Assembly: GCA_051010835.1 (NCBI GenBank) | Contig: JBPCVC010000024.1 | Location: forward strand, 8,229 to 72,228 | Reading direction: 5' to 3' | DNA: 64,000 nt | Source: Mariniblastus sp. | GTDB taxonomy: Bacteria; Planctomycetota; Planctomycetia; Pirellulales; Pirellulaceae | Shown here: piece by piece, positions 9,914 through 17,094 of the stretch | Numbering within the stretch: the stretch's first letter is position 1 | Layout: each line of letters opens with the position of its first letter | Made by a program: the position numbers and the translations under genes | The notes under the pieces: generated by a model | What the model was told of the DNA's origin: nothing | Seen by the model: only the letters and a program-made list of their open reading frames with translations | Database searches by the model: none

Positions 9914-11059
9914 TTAATTTGCCGGGTTGAGGACGCTTTCCCCCGATAACGCCTTCAGGAATTCGACCAGAAAGCCGACCTCTTGCTCTGAAAGGTTAAG
10001 GGGAGCCATTTTTTTATCGAGGGAGGGGTCGTCGGGCGCGCCGCCCCGATTGTAAAACTCGACAACTTCTCGAAGTGTTTTGACACTGCCATCGTGCATG
10101 TAGGGAGCAGTGAATTCAATATCTCGTAAAGTCGGTGTTTTGTATTGAAACTCGTGGGCGGGGTTTTTCGTTGCTTCGAATCGACCCTGATCTCGATCGG
10201 ATTTACCAAACCCGACTCCAGTATTGTGGAATGCCTCATCCGATAGATTTGAACCCGAATGGCATTTCCAACATCCGCCACGACTTTCAAAAATCCACAA
10301 TCCCTGACGAGCTTCTTTTGACAAAGCTTCGTATTCAGCCGCACGAAAGCGATCGACTTTCGAATTACCAGAGGTAAGGGTTCGTTCAAAGCTTGCAATC
10401 GCCTTGGCGAGATTTTCTACAGTCACGGTCTGGGCGGTCGGTGGCTTCGCGCCGCTTCCAAAAACGACATGGAATTCCTGAACATACTCAGGATTGTTCT
10501 TGATGTTTTCAATCACGAGTTCGACATTACCACCCAACTCAGTTTCGCTCTTGAGCGGTCCTAACACTTGTTGTTCTAAGGTGTCATCACGACCGTCCCA
10601 GGAAAATTTCTTTCCGAAGACTCGGTTGATGACCGAGGGAGCATTTCGCTTTCCCACTTTTCCTCCAACACCAACAGCGATCGGATCTGGGCTTGCGAAA
10701 CCGTGATCTGGCTGGTGGCAACTGGCGCAAGATACAGTCCCGTCGGTCGACAAAATTGGATCAAAGAAAAGCTTACGTCCCAATTTTACTTTTTCTGCCG
10801 TCGTCGCATTGTCAGCGGGAGCCTCGGGAATTCCGTTGAAGCCGCCGGGTATTTTCGTTGAACTGATTTCGGCCGGAAGGCTGTCGACGGGAAGTTTGGG
10901 GACTTTGCCCAACGGTTTGTCATCCTCGTTAGCATGGTTGTTAGCCGTCGGAAGTGCCCAGCCGCAGACGCTCGCCGCAGACAGAATGACTGCGAAAAAG
11001 AGCAGGCCTCGAGAAAGCGTGGCTTGGTTTCGACCGAGGTTTGCAAAATACAATTTCAT
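9914..11059 (-). CDS. Di-haem cytochrome c peroxidase/MauG family protein, exported
   Basis: CASCH and CWKCH haem motifs, LGRKLFFDP, RNAPSV, FSWDGR, KTPTLR..TAPYMHDG. Confidence 0.9.
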   Translation of the reverse strand: MKLYFANLGRNQATLSRGLLFFAVILSAASVCGWALPTANNHANEDDKPLGKVPKLPVDSLPAEISSTKIPGGFNGIPEAPADNATTAEKVKLGRKLFFDPILSTDGTVSCASCHQPDHGFASPDPIAVGVGGKVGKRNAPSVINRVFGKKFSWDGRDDTLEQQVLGPLKSETELGGNVELVIENIKNNPEYVQEFHVVFGSGAKPPTAQTVTVENLAKAIASFERTLTSGNSKVDRFRAAEYEALSKEARQGLWIFESRGGCWKCHSGSNLSDEAFHNTGVGFGKSDRDQGRFEATKNPAHEFQYKTPTLRDIEFTAPYMHDGSVKTLREVVEFYNRGGAPDDPSLDKKMAPLNLSEQEVGFLVEFLKALSGESVLNPAN

Positions 11060-11167: not shown

Positions 11168-11950
11168 TTAAGCGTCCTCGAGTGTCCATGCGACAACTTT
11201 TGCGTGTCTCGCAAAGTGGAGCAAAGGGGCTTCGCTGGGGAGTTGGACTCCCATCCAATCCGTCATCGTATTCTCGCGGATAATCGCCTGAGCTTCCTGT
11301 AGTTGCCATGGTTCATGGTCGATTTCACCTCGAAAGATCTTTCCCTGCTTGTTAGCGGAGTAAAGACAATACCTCGAAGTCAAAAATTGTTCGAGTGAGC
11401 CTGCGGATGCACGAAAAGATTTGCCAATAGGGCGATAATCAATTTTGAACTTAGCGGGAAGTTCACCTTGGTGAGTGCGGACTGAGCGATAACCAATCCA
11501 TTGTCCCTTATTTTTCTTGTGGCAGTCACCCACCACAATTTTTGCATCCATGTAGGGAAGATGAAAGAACTTTCGGGCAATACGAACTGCAATCGGATTC
11601 GTCGCTTCAAGACAAAAGAACCAAACTCCGGGTTTTCCGTTGATTGTCACGTAGGTACGGACGTTGAGTTCGGGAAAGCCCGACATGAACGGTACATTGG
11701 GGACGTAACGCGGGGCAACTCCTGACATTTTGAAGGGGACGACGCCCAACCACGCGGAACCGTCAAAAGTATCGATCTCGAGGCCGTCGGGAATTAATCG
11801 CTGAAGAGCATCCTTTTCGATCCTCCAATGCATGAAAAGTAGATCGTGCCACTGCATTCGCATGGACCATCCGCGGTCTGGGAGCGGCCACCTCCGGTCG
11901 TTTTCCGTCTGCTTTTCTAATACCGTCGTAATCGGCTTCTCCTTGAACAA
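11168..11950 (-). CDS. YqjF/DUF2071 family protein (start uncertain)
   Basis: MQWHDLLFMHW, FDGSAWLGVVPF, ELNVRTYV, PGVWFF, FLTSRYCLY, HEPWQL. Confidence 0.85.
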   Translation of the reverse strand: MFKEKPITTVLEKQTENDRRWPLPDRGWSMRMQWHDLLFMHWRIEKDALQRLIPDGLEIDTFDGSAWLGVVPFKMSGVAPRYVPNVPFMSGFPELNVRTYVTINGKPGVWFFCLEATNPIAVRIARKFFHLPYMDAKIVVGDCHKKNKGQWIGYRSVRTHQGELPAKFKIDYRPIGKSFRASAGSLEQFLTSRYCLYSANKQGKIFRGEIDHEPWQLQEAQAIIRENTMTDWMGVQLPSEAPLLHFARHAKVVAWTLEDA

Positions 11951-12143: not shown

Positions 12144-13943
12144 ATGAAATACCACCTCCGAGTCATGGCTGCCCTCCTCTTTGTCGCCGCCATTTCTTCA
12201 GCATCGCCCGACTTGGTTGCTGAAGATGTCGAGCGAGAGCAGTTGCAGGTTGGGGACTCTATGCCAAATTTTGTCTTAAAAGATTATCAAGGCAACCGGT
12301 TTGATTCGTCGAAGCTCGATCACGATAAATCTACCATTGTCGTATTTTTCGGCGTTGAGTGCCCGTTAGTTAAATTTTATGTACCCAAACTGGCCGAATT
12401 GGTTAACAAGAATCGTGATGCCGTACAGATCATTGGGCTAAATTCGAACCGCCAAGATTCCATTACAGAGATCGCTAGGTTTGCCAGCGAATTGAAGGTC
12501 AATTGCCCTTTGCTCAAAGATCCTGCAAACCGCGTTGCCGATGCTTTTGGAGCGAGTAGAACTCCAGAAGTCTTTCTGTTTAATTCAAACTCGGAATTGG
12601 TTTACCAAGGTGCGATTGATGATCAATTCACTTATGGGAAACAGAAATTCAAAGCCTCGCAGAATTATCTGGCAGATGCAGTTGAGGCGATCAAGAACTT
12701 ACGAGTTCCCAAGATTCAAAAAACGGAGACCGATGGTTGTATTATTGGGCGAGTCTTAACTCAGGATACAGAGAACAAATCAACGGTTACTTACGCAAAT
12801 CAGATTTCTCGAATCTTAAACGAGCGTTGTGTGAGTTGCCATCGCGATGGGGAAGCCGCGCCGTTCAGTTTAACCGATTATGATGAGGTCGTCGGTTGGG
12901 CGGGAATGATTGACGAGGTGGTCAAAGACCAGCGAATGCCACCCTGGCACGCGAACCCCAAACACGGGAAATTTAAAAATGACCCAACGTTAACCGCTGT
13001 GCAGAAGAAACTGATTAGTGATTGGGTCAAAGCTGGTGCGCCCTTGGGAGATACCAATGATCTACCCACTCCTCCGGAATTTACCAAAGGCTGGCGGATC
13101 GGAAAGCCGGACGTCGTGTTTCAGGTCACCCAAAAACCCTACTCAGTTCCGGCGACTGGTGTCCTGCCTTATGAGTACTTTCAGGTCAAAACAAATTTTA
13201 AGGAAGACAAGTGGGTGCAGGCAGCGGAGGTCAGAATTGGGAACCGCGCCGTTGTCCATCATGTCATCGTGGCTGTTTCGCGGCGCGGGGGTCGGCCGGT
13301 GCACGGTGAAATTGGTTCGGAGTGGTTGACGGCCGCTGCGCCAGGGTCGAAACCGCTGATTCTTGCAGATGGTTTAGCGAAGGTAATTCCCGCGGGGGCA
13401 ACACTGGTTTTCCAAGTTCATTATACGCCAATTGGAACGCCTCAAACGGATCTTAGCACGGTAGGCTTCAAGTTCGTCGATAAAGCAACGGTTCGGAAGA
13501 TCGTGGGTACAAAGCAAGTTGTCCAAAGAGATTTAAACATCCCGGCTGGGAAAGCAGAGTATAAAACTGACGCCAGTCGAGTAGTGCGGCAGGATGCGTT
13601 GATGCTTGCAATGTTTCCGCACATGCACTGGCGAGGAAAATCGTTCAAATATACCGCAACCTACCCCGATGGTCGAAGCGAAGTCTTGCTGGATGTGCCC
13701 AATTATGATTTTAATTGGCAGAACGGATACATCTTAGAGCAACCTAAGCTACTGCCTCGTGGTACGGAGATTAGATGCGACGCGGTTTTTGATAACTCAG
13801 CCAAGAATTTTGCCAATCCGGATCCTACACAAAAAGTGAGATGGGGAGATCAAACGTCTGATGAGATGATGATTGGTTATTTTGATATGGTGCTGTCCGA
13901 ACAGGACTTACTGAATCGTTTGTCCGATCAGCAAGACCGTTAG
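12144..13943 (+). CDS. Exported redoxin + c-type haem + copper type II (PHM/DBH-fold) monooxygenase-like protein
   Basis: Signal peptide; AhpC/TSA-like domain (ECP, RTPEVF, YQGAIDD); CVSCH; MPPW; VHHV, VHY, PHMH, DEMM. Confidence 0.75.
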   Translation: MKYHLRVMAALLFVAAISSASPDLVAEDVEREQLQVGDSMPNFVLKDYQGNRFDSSKLDHDKSTIVVFFGVECPLVKFYVPKLAELVNKNRDAVQIIGLNSNRQDSITEIARFASELKVNCPLLKDPANRVADAFGASRTPEVFLFNSNSELVYQGAIDDQFTYGKQKFKASQNYLADAVEAIKNLRVPKIQKTETDGCIIGRVLTQDTENKSTVTYANQISRILNERCVSCHRDGEAAPFSLTDYDEVVGWAGMIDEVVKDQRMPPWHANPKHGKFKNDPTLTAVQKKLISDWVKAGAPLGDTNDLPTPPEFTKGWRIGKPDVVFQVTQKPYSVPATGVLPYEYFQVKTNFKEDKWVQAAEVRIGNRAVVHHVIVAVSRRGGRPVHGEIGSEWLTAAAPGSKPLILADGLAKVIPAGATLVFQVHYTPIGTPQTDLSTVGFKFVDKATVRKIVGTKQVVQRDLNIPAGKAEYKTDASRVVRQDALMLAMFPHMHWRGKSFKYTATYPDGRSEVLLDVPNYDFNWQNGYILEQPKLLPRGTEIRCDAVFDNSAKNFANPDPTQKVRWGDQTSDEMMIGYFDMVLSEQDLLNRLSDQQDR

Positions 13944-14038: not shown

Positions 14039-14057
14039 CGTTACATCTTTGTTACGT
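14039..14057 (+). promoter_or_regulatory. Direct-repeat operator CGTTACA-N5-GTTACGT upstream of the response regulator
   Basis: GTTAC at 14040 and 14051 (11-bp period); same box at 17076. Confidence 0.65.
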
Positions 14058-17075: not shown

Positions 17076-17094
17076 CGTTACAATCCCGTTACGT
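17076..17094 (+). promoter_or_regulatory. Second copy of the CGTTACA-N5-GTTACGT operator, upstream of the DUF4139 gene
   Basis: cgttacaatcccgttacgt; 14 of 14 conserved positions identical to 14039-14057. Confidence 0.65.

What the first reader, a model, noticed from the sequence alone, without database searches (positions are those of the whole stretch)
12144..13943. Possibly self-sufficient bacterial PHM/DBH-type dicopper monooxygenase with redoxin and haem c modules
The C-terminal half keeps candidates for all six Cu ligands of peptidylglycine/dopamine monooxygenases (HH, H, HxH, M in VHHV, VHY, PHMH, DEMM). It is preceded by a CxxCH haem site and a single-Cys redoxin domain. This suggests an internal thiol-to-haem-to-Cu electron path replacing ascorbate. 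The substrate is unknown.
Basis: partly seen in the sequence, partly recalled or inferred. Interest (0 to 1): 0.62.

Follow-up and report, generated by a model that had tools for sequence, protein, structure and literature searches.

The report
Bacterial haem-fed PHM-like copper monooxygenase
This planctomycete gene encodes an exported enzyme that joins a thiol-redox domain and a c-type haem to a two-copper core like the animal enzymes that amidate peptide hormones and make noradrenaline. It belongs to a very large bacterial family that has not been studied and is labelled only "redoxin".

Summary
ORF 12144-13943 (+) encodes 599 aa. It has a Sec signal peptide, a thioredoxin-fold domain without a CxxC motif, a CxxCH haem c domain, and a two-subdomain beta-sandwich.

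The predicted fold matches PHM and DBH (Foldseek E about 1e-14). A family profile hits only DBH and PHM among all PDB sequences. It places H372/H373/H426 and H493/H495/M575 exactly on PHM's CuH and CuM ligands. These residues, the haem motif and Met265 are at least 97% conserved in 105 diverse relatives.

The haem c plus copper core is the constant unit: 9,831 clusters at 50% identity, in Planctomycetota, Acidobacteriota and Verrucomicrobiota. The redoxin is an accessory. It is fused in most planctomycete copies, encoded as an adjacent separate gene in others, and absent in the Acidobacteriota loci examined. It carries two conserved cysteines, C73 and C199. One homologue has an in-frame TGA, possibly selenocysteine, at position 199.

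The most likely function is an O2-dependent hydroxylase that receives electrons through its own haem instead of ascorbate. The substrate is unknown; PHM's carboxylate-binding Arg240 and Asn316 are missing. "Self-sufficient" is not supported, because there is no reductase module. The thiol-to-haem step remains speculative. I found no publication on this family.

The parts
12144..13943 (+). Complete ORF, 599 aa plus stop: signal peptide, redoxin, haem c, PHM-like two-copper core
   Evidence: ORF; more than 4,400 full-length homologues. AF2 mean pLDDT 84.6, pTM 0.77.
12144..12203 (+). Sec-type signal peptide (MKYHLR / VMAALLFVAAI / SSA, predicted cleavage after A20)
   Evidence: Read from the sequence. 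Residues 16-30 have pLDDT below 50. Export is required for c-type haem attachment (established knowledge).
12237..12758 (+). Thioredoxin-fold 'redoxin' module of the 2cvb/2ywi (PRX-like) type, residues about 32-205. C73 (12360-12362) sits at the nucleophilic Cys position, V76 at the second CxxC position, T140-P141 is the cis-Pro loop, and C199 (12738-12740) lies in the terminal G-C-x-I motif.
   Evidence: Pfam AhpC-TSA 56.4 bits against a cut-off of 26. Foldseek 2cvb TM 0.83. ResA alignment places C73 on the first Cys of CEPC. C73 is conserved in 71/71 and C199 in 70/71 diverse modules.
12777..13043 (+). Mono-haem cytochrome c module, residues about 212-300. C229-V-S-C232-H233 is at 12828-12842. 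The candidate distal ligand M265 is at 12936-12938, in RMPPW.
   Evidence: Weak Pfam hits to Haem_bd and Cytochrome_CBB3; relatives reach the Pfam threshold. C229, C232, H233, M265, P266, P267 and W268 are at least 97% conserved in 105 representatives.
13089..13484 (+). PHM-like N-terminal beta-sandwich carrying the CuH-type site: H372, H373 (13257-13262), H426 (13419-13421), plus Q424 (= PHM Q170)
   Evidence: Profile alignment to PHM H107/H108/Q170/H172 and to the DBH HH and H motifs. Fold match. Conservation.
13497..13901 (+). PHM-like C-terminal beta-sandwich carrying the CuM-type site: H493, H495 (13620-13628), M575 (13866-13868), plus Q526 (= PHM Q272) and Y579 (= PHM Y318). F491 and I577 stand where PHM has the substrate-binding R240 and N316.
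   Evidence: alignment (chain index + 44 = PHM numbering). Pfam Cu2_monoox_C is weak here (13.6 bits) but matches 23 of 26 relatives, best E 6e-7.

Best explanation
The gene encodes an exported (periplasmic) redox enzyme with three modules.

The catalytic end is a non-coupled binuclear copper centre of the PHM/DBH type. The CuH-type site uses H372, H373 and H426. The CuM-type site uses H493, H495 and M575. By analogy with PHM and DBH, CuM binds O2 and hydroxylates a C-H bond, while CuH stores and delivers the second electron.

In animals the two electrons come from ascorbate. Here a covalently bound haem c (C229/C232/H233, probably with M265 as sixth ligand) is fused directly in front of the copper core in every full-length relative. 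It most likely serves as the one-electron entry gate to CuH.

The N-terminal thioredoxin-fold module carries a conserved C73/C199 pair. It is a redox-active accessory functionally coupled to the core. It either feeds electrons towards the haem or copper, or protects or services the enzyme by handling peroxide or copper. The haem may equally be reduced by soluble periplasmic cytochromes.

The substrate is unknown. It is not bound as in PHM, because R240 and N316 are not conserved.

Shown here: the fold, homology, ligand conservation, constancy of the haem-copper fusion, and redoxin-core linkage by fusion or fission.
Inferred: copper and haem occupancy, the direction of electron flow, and monooxygenase chemistry.
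For: Fold:
- AF2 model pLDDT 84.6, pTM 0.77.
- Foldseek against PDB gives PHM entries at E 1e-14 to 1e-12 (TM 0.56-0.66 on the target) and DBH 4zel at 1.4e-12.
- An independent model of an acidobacterial short form (pLDDT 86.9, pTM 0.82) has PHM or DBH as its top 31 hits. Unrelated jelly rolls follow only at E 5e-6 or worse.

Sequence:
- Profile A2 hits only DBH and PHM in the PDB.
- It aligns HH, H, HxH and M, and also PHM Q170, Q272 and Y318, with H372/H373, H426, H493/H495, M575, Q424, Q526 and Y579.
- All ligands and the haem motif are at least 97% conserved in 105 representatives that share no more than 50% identity.

Architecture:
- CxxCH lies about 142 residues before HH in nearly every full-length representative.
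- Of 118 representatives with CxxCH, 86 are redoxin + cytochrome + core and 29 are cytochrome + core only.

Redoxin linkage:
- Among 16 short-form planctomycete loci, 5 have a separate redoxin gene immediately upstream and 3 immediately downstream.
- One is fused through an in-frame TGA, one is fused but cut by the contig end, 2 are solo and 4 cannot be assessed.

Redox activity of the pair:
- C73 is conserved in 71/71 and C199 in 70/71 modules.
- TGA aligns exactly with Cys199 in a homologue from a genome that has tRNA-Sec and SelB.

Other:
- A signal peptide is present.
- The family has no conserved neighbouring gene that could supply a dedicated reductase: the most frequent neighbour occurs in 9 of 84 loci and is a sulfatase.
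Against: - There is no biochemical evidence of copper, haem or activity.
- This protein itself is below the Pfam gathering scores for Cu2_monoox_C (13.6 against 23 bits) and for the cytochrome models.
- PHM's disulfides and its substrate-binding R240 and N316 are absent, so the chemistry could differ.
- A His/Met haem c is usually high-potential, so electron flow could run the other way.
- Genomic context gives no clue to the substrate.
Confidence: 0.6

Rival explanations
1. One reading: a self-contained relay. The redoxin thiol(s) reduce the haem c, which reduces CuH and CuM, so the enzyme needs only a periplasmic thiol reductant (for example a CcdA/DsbD-type membrane system) and no ascorbate or external cytochrome.
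For: - Redoxin and core are fused, or adjacent genes, in most planctomycete copies.
- C199 sits exactly at the boundary between the redoxin and the haem module. It is 70/71 conserved.
- It is replaced by TGA (possibly Sec) in a homologue whose genome has SelB and tRNA-Sec. This is reminiscent of a mobile redox arm.
- C73 occupies the nucleophilic Cys position of ResA.
Against: - 29 of 118 diverse representatives and the abundant acidobacterial subfamily lack any fused or adjacent redoxin, so the core works without it.
- Two-electron thiol/disulfide chemistry feeding a one-electron haem c is unusual.
- No contact or distance data are available.
- There is no reductase module, so 'self-sufficient' does not hold in the strict sense.
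Confidence: 0.22
2. The copper core is fed through haem c by respiratory or periplasmic cytochromes. The redoxin is a protective or servicing module instead. It could be a 2-Cys peroxiredoxin-like scavenger of H2O2 or hydroperoxide leaking from uncoupled copper-oxygen chemistry, or a helper for Cu(I) loading or repair.
For: - The closest structures are the PRX-like 2cvb, 2ywi and 3u5r.
- PMC3091736 treats the C-terminal Cys of 2ywi as a resolving Cys.
- The active-site Cys-Pro and the terminal Gly-Cys are conserved as a pair.
- A di-haem cytochrome c peroxidase gene lies divergently upstream in the window and in 5 related loci. This is a weak hint of a peroxide theme.
- The core exists without the redoxin.
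Against: - The Prx Thr/Ser at position -3 from the Cys is Gly here (GVEC).
- The NCBIfam thiol-peroxidase match is far below its cut-off (25 against 140 bits).
- Where Sec occurs in peroxiredoxins it normally replaces the peroxidatic Cys, not the resolving one (general knowledge).
- The CCP neighbour is limited to close relatives (6 of 84 loci).
Confidence: 0.3
3. Electron flow runs in reverse. The protein is an oxidase or dehydrogenase. One version is a QSOX-like periplasmic thiol oxidase: substrate thiols to C73/C199 to haem to Cu to O2. Another is a copper-site substrate oxidase that passes electrons through haem c to the respiratory chain.
For: - Modular logic similar to Trx-fused sulfhydryl oxidases (general knowledge).
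- His/Met haem c is commonly high-potential (general knowledge).
- There is no substrate-binding similarity to PHM.
Against: - The His3 plus His2Met ligand sets, with PHM Q170 and Q272 equivalents retained, are specific to O2-activating monooxygenases.
- The core occurs without the redoxin.
- PHM-type CuM does not reduce O2 without substrate (PMC9064607 abstract).
Confidence: 0.1
4. It is simply a peroxiredoxin or thiol-disulfide isomerase, as the databases name it. The C-terminal half would be a non-catalytic beta-sandwich, for example a binding module.
For: Database names 'redoxin domain-containing protein' and 'peroxiredoxin'. Jelly-roll folds often act as binding modules (PMC8812541).
Against: - Six metal-ligand residues and the haem motif are essentially invariant across thousands of clusters.
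- Relatives without any redoxin domain carry the same names by propagation.
- The C-terminal half is the most conserved part of the protein.
Confidence: 0.03

Closest known systems
Peptidylglycine alpha-hydroxylating monooxygenase (PHM, catalytic core of PAM; PDB 1phm, 1opm, 1sdw, 3mll)
   Same: - Two beta-sandwich subdomains.
- CuH ligands HH...H and CuM ligands HxH...M align residue for residue.
- PHM Q170, Q272 and Y318 equivalents are conserved.
   Different: - Bacterial and exported to the periplasm.
- About 17-19% identity.
- No PHM disulfides.
- R240 and N316 (peptidyl-Gly binding) are replaced by F491 and I577.
- A family-specific FDNSxxNxxNPDP loop.
- Fused haem c and redoxin modules instead of dependence on soluble ascorbate.
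- No PAL partner seen in this window.
Dopamine beta-hydroxylase / tyramine beta-monooxygenase / MOXD1 (PDB 4zel)
   Same: - Best sequence-profile hit (E 1.9e-6) and a fold hit.
- Like DBH, the copper core is preceded by an extra N-terminal domain. In DBH this is DOMON, a fold that binds haem b in other proteins (my own knowledge).
   Different: The preceding domain here is a c-type cytochrome with covalent haem plus a thioredoxin fold, not DOMON. There is no dimerisation domain. The substrate is unknown.
Haem c-tethered copper nitrite reductases and the CDH cytochrome domain feeding LPMO copper (functional analogues; my own knowledge)
   Same: A cytochrome domain tethered to, or partnered with, a copper enzyme to deliver single electrons.
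   Different: Different copper sites (T1/T2 Cu; histidine brace), different folds and different chemistry. There is no homology to the present core.
PRX-like / TlpA-like thioredoxin-fold proteins 2cvb (Thermus), 2ywi (Geobacillus), 3u5r (Sinorhizobium); ResA
   Same: - Fold TM 0.79-0.85.
- Cys-Pro active site.
- cis-Pro loop.
- G-x-x-DD motif.
- Terminal Gly-Cys.
   Different: These are stand-alone proteins of unknown function. ResA has a true CxxC motif, whereas here the second position is Val (A/S/V/G/T across the family).

Membership tests
PHM/DBH copper type II monooxygenases (Pfam PF01082 + PF03712) | Two jelly-roll beta-sandwich subdomains facing each other | tested here: met
   AF2 models. 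Foldseek gives PHM at E about 1e-14 and DBH at about 1e-12 for both models. For the short form, the top 31 hits are all PHM or DBH.
PHM/DBH copper type II monooxygenases (Pfam PF01082 + PF03712) | CuH ligands: HH motif plus a distal His (PHM H107, H108, H172) | tested here: met
   H372, H373 and H426 align to them and are at least 97% conserved in 105 representatives.
PHM/DBH copper type II monooxygenases (Pfam PF01082 + PF03712) | CuM ligands: HxH plus Met (PHM H242, H244, M314) | tested here: met
   H493, H495 and M575 align to them and are at least 97% conserved.
PHM/DBH copper type II monooxygenases (Pfam PF01082 + PF03712) | Reaches the Pfam gathering score | tested here: not met
   Cu2_monoox_C scores 13.6 bits against a cut-off of 23, and the N-domain model gives no hit. 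Some relatives pass (P0171, 25.0 bits). 23 of 26 relatives match at E up to 1, best 6e-7. Precomputed PF03712 is present on many relatives.
PHM/DBH copper type II monooxygenases (Pfam PF01082 + PF03712) | PHM-specific substrate carboxylate and backbone binders R240 and N316 (and Y318) | tested here: not met
   F491 and I577 occupy the R240 and N316 positions. Only Y318 (Y579) is kept.
PHM/DBH copper type II monooxygenases (Pfam PF01082 + PF03712) | Conserved intradomain disulfides of the eukaryotic enzymes | tested here: not met
   The C-terminal half has a single Cys, C545. It is not conserved in the wider family.
PHM/DBH copper type II monooxygenases (Pfam PF01082 + PF03712) | Binds two Cu and performs O2- and reductant-dependent C-H hydroxylation | not testable with these tools
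   Needs protein chemistry.
Class I-type c cytochrome | CxxCH haem attachment motif in an exported protein | tested here: met
   C229-V-S-C232-H233 and the signal peptide. The motif is invariant.
Class I-type c cytochrome | Distal Met ligand | tested here: inconclusive
   M265 in RMPPW is invariant and lies where the Cytochrome_CBB3 model expects it. Ligation cannot be shown without coordinates or spectra.
Class I-type c cytochrome | Reaches a Pfam cytochrome c gathering score | tested here: not met
   Cytochrome_CBB3 scores 15.1 against 27 bits here. The relative P0128 scores 27.5 bits, and the best E among extended relatives is 4e-9.
TlpA/ResA thiol-disulfide oxidoreductases | Thioredoxin fold with a cis-Pro loop | tested here: met
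   AhpC-TSA 56.4 bits against 26. ResA alignment with T140-P141. ResA fold hits at TM 0.77-0.80.
TlpA/ResA thiol-disulfide oxidoreductases | CxxC active site | tested here: not met
   The site is C73-P-L-V76. The second position is A/S/V/G/T in 68 of 71 relatives. The NCBIfam ResA score is 50 against a cut-off of 170.
PRX-like 2cvb/2ywi-type proteins | Active-site Cys-Pro plus a conserved Cys at the C-terminal end of the domain | tested here: met
   Alignments to 2cvb and 2ywi include both Cys residues. C73 is 71/71 and C199 70/71. PMC3091736 discusses the 2ywi C-terminal Cys.
Typical peroxiredoxins | PxxxT/SxxC peroxidatic motif | tested here: not met
   The sequence is VVFFGVEC: Gly at -3 and no Pro at -7. 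The Bcp equivalog scores 25 against 140 bits.
Self-sufficient fused monooxygenases (P450 BM3 type) | Own NAD(P)H/flavin reductase module | tested here: not met
   No such domain was found by Pfam, NCBIfam or fold search.

The most novel reading that the evidence does not exclude
This is one member of a large bacterial branch of the PHM/DBH copper monooxygenases: about 10,000 clusters at 50% identity, in Planctomycetota, Acidobacteriota and Verrucomicrobiota. The enzyme class is usually listed as eukaryotic.

In this branch ascorbate is replaced by a covalently tethered haem c. A dedicated Cys/Cys (in some lineages Cys/Sec) thioredoxin-fold partner forms a thiol-to-haem-to-copper relay in the periplasm. 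The enzymes would carry out an unrecognised oxidative modification of extracellular or periplasmic peptides, amines or glycans. A subset carries CBM48-like, SGNH or EF-hand modules.
Probability: 0.3. Interest if true: 0.82.

Novelty: new variant of a known kind. Interest (0 to 1): 0.64.

Why it matters
PHM, DBH and TBM are textbook non-coupled binuclear copper enzymes. How an electron crosses about 11 Å of solvent from CuH to CuM remains debated, and the family is generally treated as eukaryotic; PMC8812541 contrasts PNGase F in bacteria with PHM in eukaryotes.

A very large bacterial branch with a built-in haem c donor would offer three things:
- Bacterial members that may be easier to express.
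- A natural handle for triggering and timing electron entry, by photoreduction or stopped-flow through the haem.
- A new periplasmic oxygenase chemistry in abundant environmental heterotrophs.

It would also correct thousands of database names. These proteins are called 'redoxin', 'peroxiredoxin' or 'thiol-disulfide isomerase', the last even for proteins with no thioredoxin fold.

The possible Sec/Cys exchange at position 199 marks that residue as catalytic.

Tried and rejected
- **Conserved operon partners.** I clustered ORFs from 84 loci. The most frequent real neighbour (9 of 84 loci) is a sulfatase at varying distance and strand, which is chance in planctomycetes. The second cluster consists of antisense ORFs.
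- **CCP_MauG, MoxR and 640-aa block.** It accompanies the gene only in 6 closely related loci, so this is synteny, not a system.
- **Short-form neighbourhoods in Acidobacteriota and an unnamed contig.** They show no common theme; TonB-type receptors are nearby in 3 of 4, but such genes are abundant there.
- **Control by the adjacent two-component system.** The GTTAC-N6-GTTAC boxes lie at 14040 and 17077, downstream of this gene. There is none upstream.
- **Literature.** Six full-text searches combining PHM, DBH or Cu2_monoox terms with bacteria, Planctomycetes or cytochrome c found nothing on this family. One search was badly worded and uninformative.
- **Technical failures.**
  - The search for related loci failed with the divergent alignment A2 and was repeated with A1.
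  - A Pfam scan of 118 sequences exceeded the size limit and was done on subsets.
- **Conservation of the TGA.** The G040 protein has no relative above 49% identity, so this could not be tested. The phylum-wide search with alignment A6 listed only stop-free top hits.
- **SECIS hairpin.** The candidate hairpin is not statistically distinguishable from shuffled sequence (z = -1.05).
- **Ligand distances.** Model coordinates are not exposed, so ligand-to-ligand and haem-to-Cu distances could not be measured.
Full report
**1. Observation**

The window has one long ORF at exactly the stated coordinates: 12144-13943 on the + strand, 599 codons plus TAG.
- VHHV at residues 371-374
- VHY at 425-427
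- PHMH at 492-495
- DEMM at 573-576
- CVSCH at 229-233
- one cysteine, C73, at the thioredoxin-fold active site (FFGVECPLV)

The N-terminus (MKYHLR-VMAALLFVAAI-SSA) reads as a Sec signal peptide. This fits a protein that must receive covalent haem in the periplasm.

**2. Domain evidence**

Pfam recognises only the redoxin domain with confidence: AhpC-TSA 56.4 bits and Redoxin 54.7 bits, residues 35-157. The haem region gives sub-threshold hits (Haem_bd, Cytochrome_CBB3), and Cu2_monoox_C scores 13.6 bits against a cut-off of 23. NCBIfam gives only far sub-threshold ResA, StoA and Bcp matches. The C-terminal assignment therefore needed independent tests.

**3. Fold**

An AlphaFold2 model built on 60 homologues has mean pLDDT 84.6 and pTM 0.77.

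Foldseek against the PDB returns two groups of hits:
- The PRX-like thioredoxin-fold proteins 2cvb, 2ywo, 3u5r and 2ywi (TM 0.79-0.85 on the target) for the N-terminal domain.
- About 30 PHM entries (E 1e-14 to 1e-10, TM 0.53-0.66, roughly 280-300 aligned columns) and human DBH 4zel (E 1.4e-12) for the C-terminal half.

As an independent check I modelled P0180, a 406-aa acidobacterial relative that lacks the redoxin (pLDDT 86.9, pTM 0.82). Its top 31 PDB matches are all PHM or DBH (E 9e-15 to 5e-10). Unrelated jelly rolls begin only at E 5e-6.

**4. Ligand-for-ligand homology**

A profile of 26 diverse C-terminal domains (A2) was searched against all 177,635 distinct PDB sequences. It hits only DBH (E 1.9e-6) and PHM chains (E 4.6e-6 and weaker). 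Converting chain indices to PHM numbering (+44), the printed alignment pairs residues as follows:

| This protein | PHM | Role in PHM |
|---|---|---|
| H372, H373 | H107, H108 | CuH ligands |
| Q424 | Q170 | conserved second-shell residue |
| H426 | H172 | CuH ligand |
| H493, H495 | H242, H244 | CuM ligands |
| Q526 | Q272 | conserved second-shell residue |
| M575 | M314 | CuM ligand |
| Y579 | Y318 | substrate binding |
| F491 | R240 | substrate carboxylate binding (not conserved here) |
| I577 | N316 | substrate backbone binding (not conserved here) |

PHM's disulfide cysteines have no counterparts. The C-terminal half has only C545, which is not conserved in the wider family. The core is therefore a PHM/DBH homologue with both copper sites intact, but its substrate site differs.

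**5. Family size and conservation**

The full-length protein has more than 4,400 homologues among the 8,000 candidates scored. All named ones are Planctomycetota, and they are annotated 'redoxin domain-containing protein', 'peroxiredoxin' or 'AhpC/TSA'.

The C-terminal 299 residues alone match 9,831 clusters at 50% identity (E up to 1e-3); 5,707 of these have E up to 1e-10.

In 105 representatives spanning the haem and copper parts, the following are each at least 97% conserved: C229, C232, H233, M265-P-P-W, H372, H373, H426, H493, H495, R497, G498, W525, Q526, Y529, the D550-N-S, N555 and N558 loop, E574 and M575.

Distribution:
- The copper core occurs in 75 of 201 sampled genomes of the phylum, with 1-5 copies each.
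- The window's genome has a second copy on another contig, with an EF-hand tail.
- The genome collection gave at least 589 confirmed loci; the 80 best are all Planctomycetota.
- The short form is abundant in Acidobacteriota (Bryobacteraceae, Solibacter).
- A relative of the fused form is labelled Chthoniobacteraceae (Verrucomicrobiota).

**6. Architecture**

In nearly every full-length representative, CxxCH precedes the HH motif by about 142 residues.

Among 118 representatives with CxxCH:
- 86 are redoxin + cytochrome + core
- 29 are cytochrome + core only
- 3 have another N-terminus

The haem c plus copper core is thus the constant unit and the redoxin is an accessory.

Extra C-terminal modules occur in subsets:
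- EF-hand pairs in 13 of 41 extended members
- AMPK1_CBM/CBM48-like modules in 5
- SGNH hydrolase in 2
- PQQ-type propeller, 3-keto-disaccharide hydrolase-like, alpha/beta hydrolase and ankyrin once each

This variety gives no firm clue to the substrate. A link to carbohydrates in some members is only a hint.

**7. The redoxin module**

Alignment to ResA puts C73 on the first (nucleophilic) Cys of CEPC and V76 on the second. T140-P141 is the cis-Pro loop.

The nearest structures (2cvb, 2ywi) share a second Cys at the very end of the domain, in a G-C motif, which aligns with C199. PMC3091736 treats that Cys of 2ywi as a peroxiredoxin-type resolving Cys.

In 71 diverse redoxin modules of this family:
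- C73 is present in 71
- C199 is present in 70
- the canonical second CxxC position is Cys in only 3

The module is therefore not a single-Cys domain. It carries a conserved C73/C199 pair.

**8. Test of redoxin-core coupling**

Earlier scan notes reported separate redoxin partner genes in other phyla. I tested this in Planctomycetota by fetching 16 loci whose copper-core ORF is short and scanning all six frames with core and redoxin HMMs.

| Arrangement | Loci |
|---|---|
| Separate redoxin gene immediately upstream, same strand | L097, L098, L102, L104, L105 |
| Separate redoxin gene immediately downstream | L092, L093, L096 |
| Fused through an in-frame TGA | L095 |
| Fused but cut by the contig end | L101 |
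| Solo, with full flanks | L091, L103 |
| Cannot be assessed (contig ends) | 4 loci |

In the upstream cases each protein has its own signal or lipoprotein peptide, and the redoxin ends right after the G-C-x-I motif.

So 10 of 12 assessable loci have the redoxin fused or adjacent. This pattern of fusion and fission is good evidence that redoxin and core work together. The five short-form loci examined outside the phylum had no adjacent redoxin, so the core can also function without it.

**9. A possible selenocysteine**

In L095 (genome G040) the redoxin and the haem-copper reading frames are one continuous frame interrupted by a single TGA (CCA GGG TGA ATA). This codon aligns without gaps to Cys199 of the window protein; the overall alignment is 35% identity at E 4e-120.

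Supporting points:
- G040 has tRNA-Sec (71.3 bits against a cut-off of 47) and SelB (360.8 bits against 242).
- A GGUGCG-N9-CGCACC hairpin starts 12 nt after the UGA, but its stability is not significant against shuffles.
- In L096 (G181, which also has tRNA-Sec) a stand-alone redoxin reads ...EAPG-TGA-KLNR-TGA followed by a GC-rich hairpin. Its relatives in L092 and L093 read ...APGC... and ...AAGC... at that point.

G040's protein has no close relative (next best 49% identity), so conservation of the TGA could not be checked. A sequencing error or pseudogene remains possible. I put Sec at roughly even odds. If real, it marks position 199 as a catalytic redox residue.

**10. Genomic context**

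Neighbours of the gene:
- Upstream and divergent: a DUF2071 gene (11168-11950) and a di-haem cytochrome c peroxidase (9914-11059).
- Further upstream: a MoxR-type AAA_5 ATPase and a 639-aa protein with no Pfam match.
- Downstream: an OmpR-type response regulator and a histidine kinase.

The GTTAC-N6-GTTAC boxes lie at 14040 and 17077, after this gene and not before it. Nothing ties the gene to that regulon.

Across 84 loci no neighbour is conserved. The peroxidase block recurs only in 5 related loci.

**11. Mechanism**

The best-supported reading is a periplasmic PHM/DBH-type monooxygenase in which a tethered haem c replaces ascorbate as the one-electron donor to CuH. CuM activates O2 and hydroxylates an unknown substrate.

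- Shown: homology, ligand conservation, the invariant haem fusion, and redoxin linkage.
- Inferred: metal occupancy, direction of electron flow, and the chemistry.

C199 sits at the boundary between redoxin and haem, there is the Cys/Sec hint, and the two modules are coupled. However, the step is unproven and is not required for the core. 'Self-sufficient' is not met, because no reductase module exists. A protective peroxiredoxin-like or copper-servicing role for the redoxin is at least as likely.

**12. Novelty**

Six full-text searches found no paper on bacterial PHM/DBH homologues fused to cytochrome c. PMC8812541 describes PHM as widespread in eukaryotes.

Public Pfam pre-computations already tag some relatives with PF03712. 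The resemblance is therefore latent in databases but not reflected in names or in the literature searched.

This scan has met the family repeatedly: 69 earlier notes hold all the search words, and the eight shown describe this family. Those notes are not independent evidence, but they show how widespread the family is.

I rate the finding a new variant of a known kind.

Noticed in passing
L095 6171-6173 (minus strand; genome G040, contig C70); also L096 6461-6463 (genome G181): An in-frame TGA sits exactly at the codon that aligns with the conserved Cys199, inside an otherwise continuous 607-residue redoxin-cytochrome-PHM-like frame. G040 has tRNA-Sec and SelB, and a hairpin lies 12 nt downstream. 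A second, weaker case is a stand-alone redoxin ending ...APG-TGA-KLNR-TGA. This may be a Sec/Cys exchange at a catalytic position. A sequencing error is not excluded.
   Followed up: partly
L097, L098, L102, L104, L105 (redoxin gene upstream); L092, L093, L096 (redoxin gene downstream): In planctomycete genomes where the haem-copper core is a short ORF, the redoxin module is a separate adjacent gene with its own signal or lipoprotein peptide. This is fission of the fused architecture seen in the window.
   Followed up: yes
G000 contig C112, L004 1-1941 (+): A second paralogue in the same genome (cut at the contig start) has the same three modules plus a C-terminal EF-hand tail. It is followed by a large membrane protein gene. 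EF-hand pairs are the commonest extra module in the family (13 of 41 extended members).
   Followed up: partly
window 9914-11059 (-), with 8591-9577 (-) and 6668-8587 (-): A di-haem cytochrome c peroxidase (CCP_MauG), a MoxR-like AAA_5 ATPase and a 639-aa protein with no Pfam match form a block divergent from the gene. The block recurs in only 5 related loci (L002, L005-L008).
   Followed up: partly
P0180, P0283, P0294 and many others (Acidobacteriota): Proteins of about 400 aa that consist only of the haem c and PHM-like core are named 'thiol-disulfide isomerase' in NCBI records, although they have no thioredoxin-fold domain. This is an annotation propagated from the fused planctomycete proteins.
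   Followed up: yes
P0125, P0128, P0132 (AMPK1_CBM/CBM48-like); P0174, P0185 (SGNH); P0172 (PQQ_2 propeller): Some family members carry carbohydrate-binding-like or esterase modules after the copper core. This is a weak hint that part of the family acts on glycans.
   Followed up: partly
window 14040-14055 and 17077-17092 (+): Two perfect GTTAC-N6-GTTAC boxes lie upstream of the response-regulator/kinase operon and of the next gene. This is the subject of an earlier finding. Neither lies upstream of the gene studied here.
   Followed up: partly
window 11168-11950 (-): A DUF2071 (COG2071, acetoacetate-decarboxylase-like) gene lies between the peroxidase and the studied gene. It is present in only 4 of 84 loci.
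   Followed up: no
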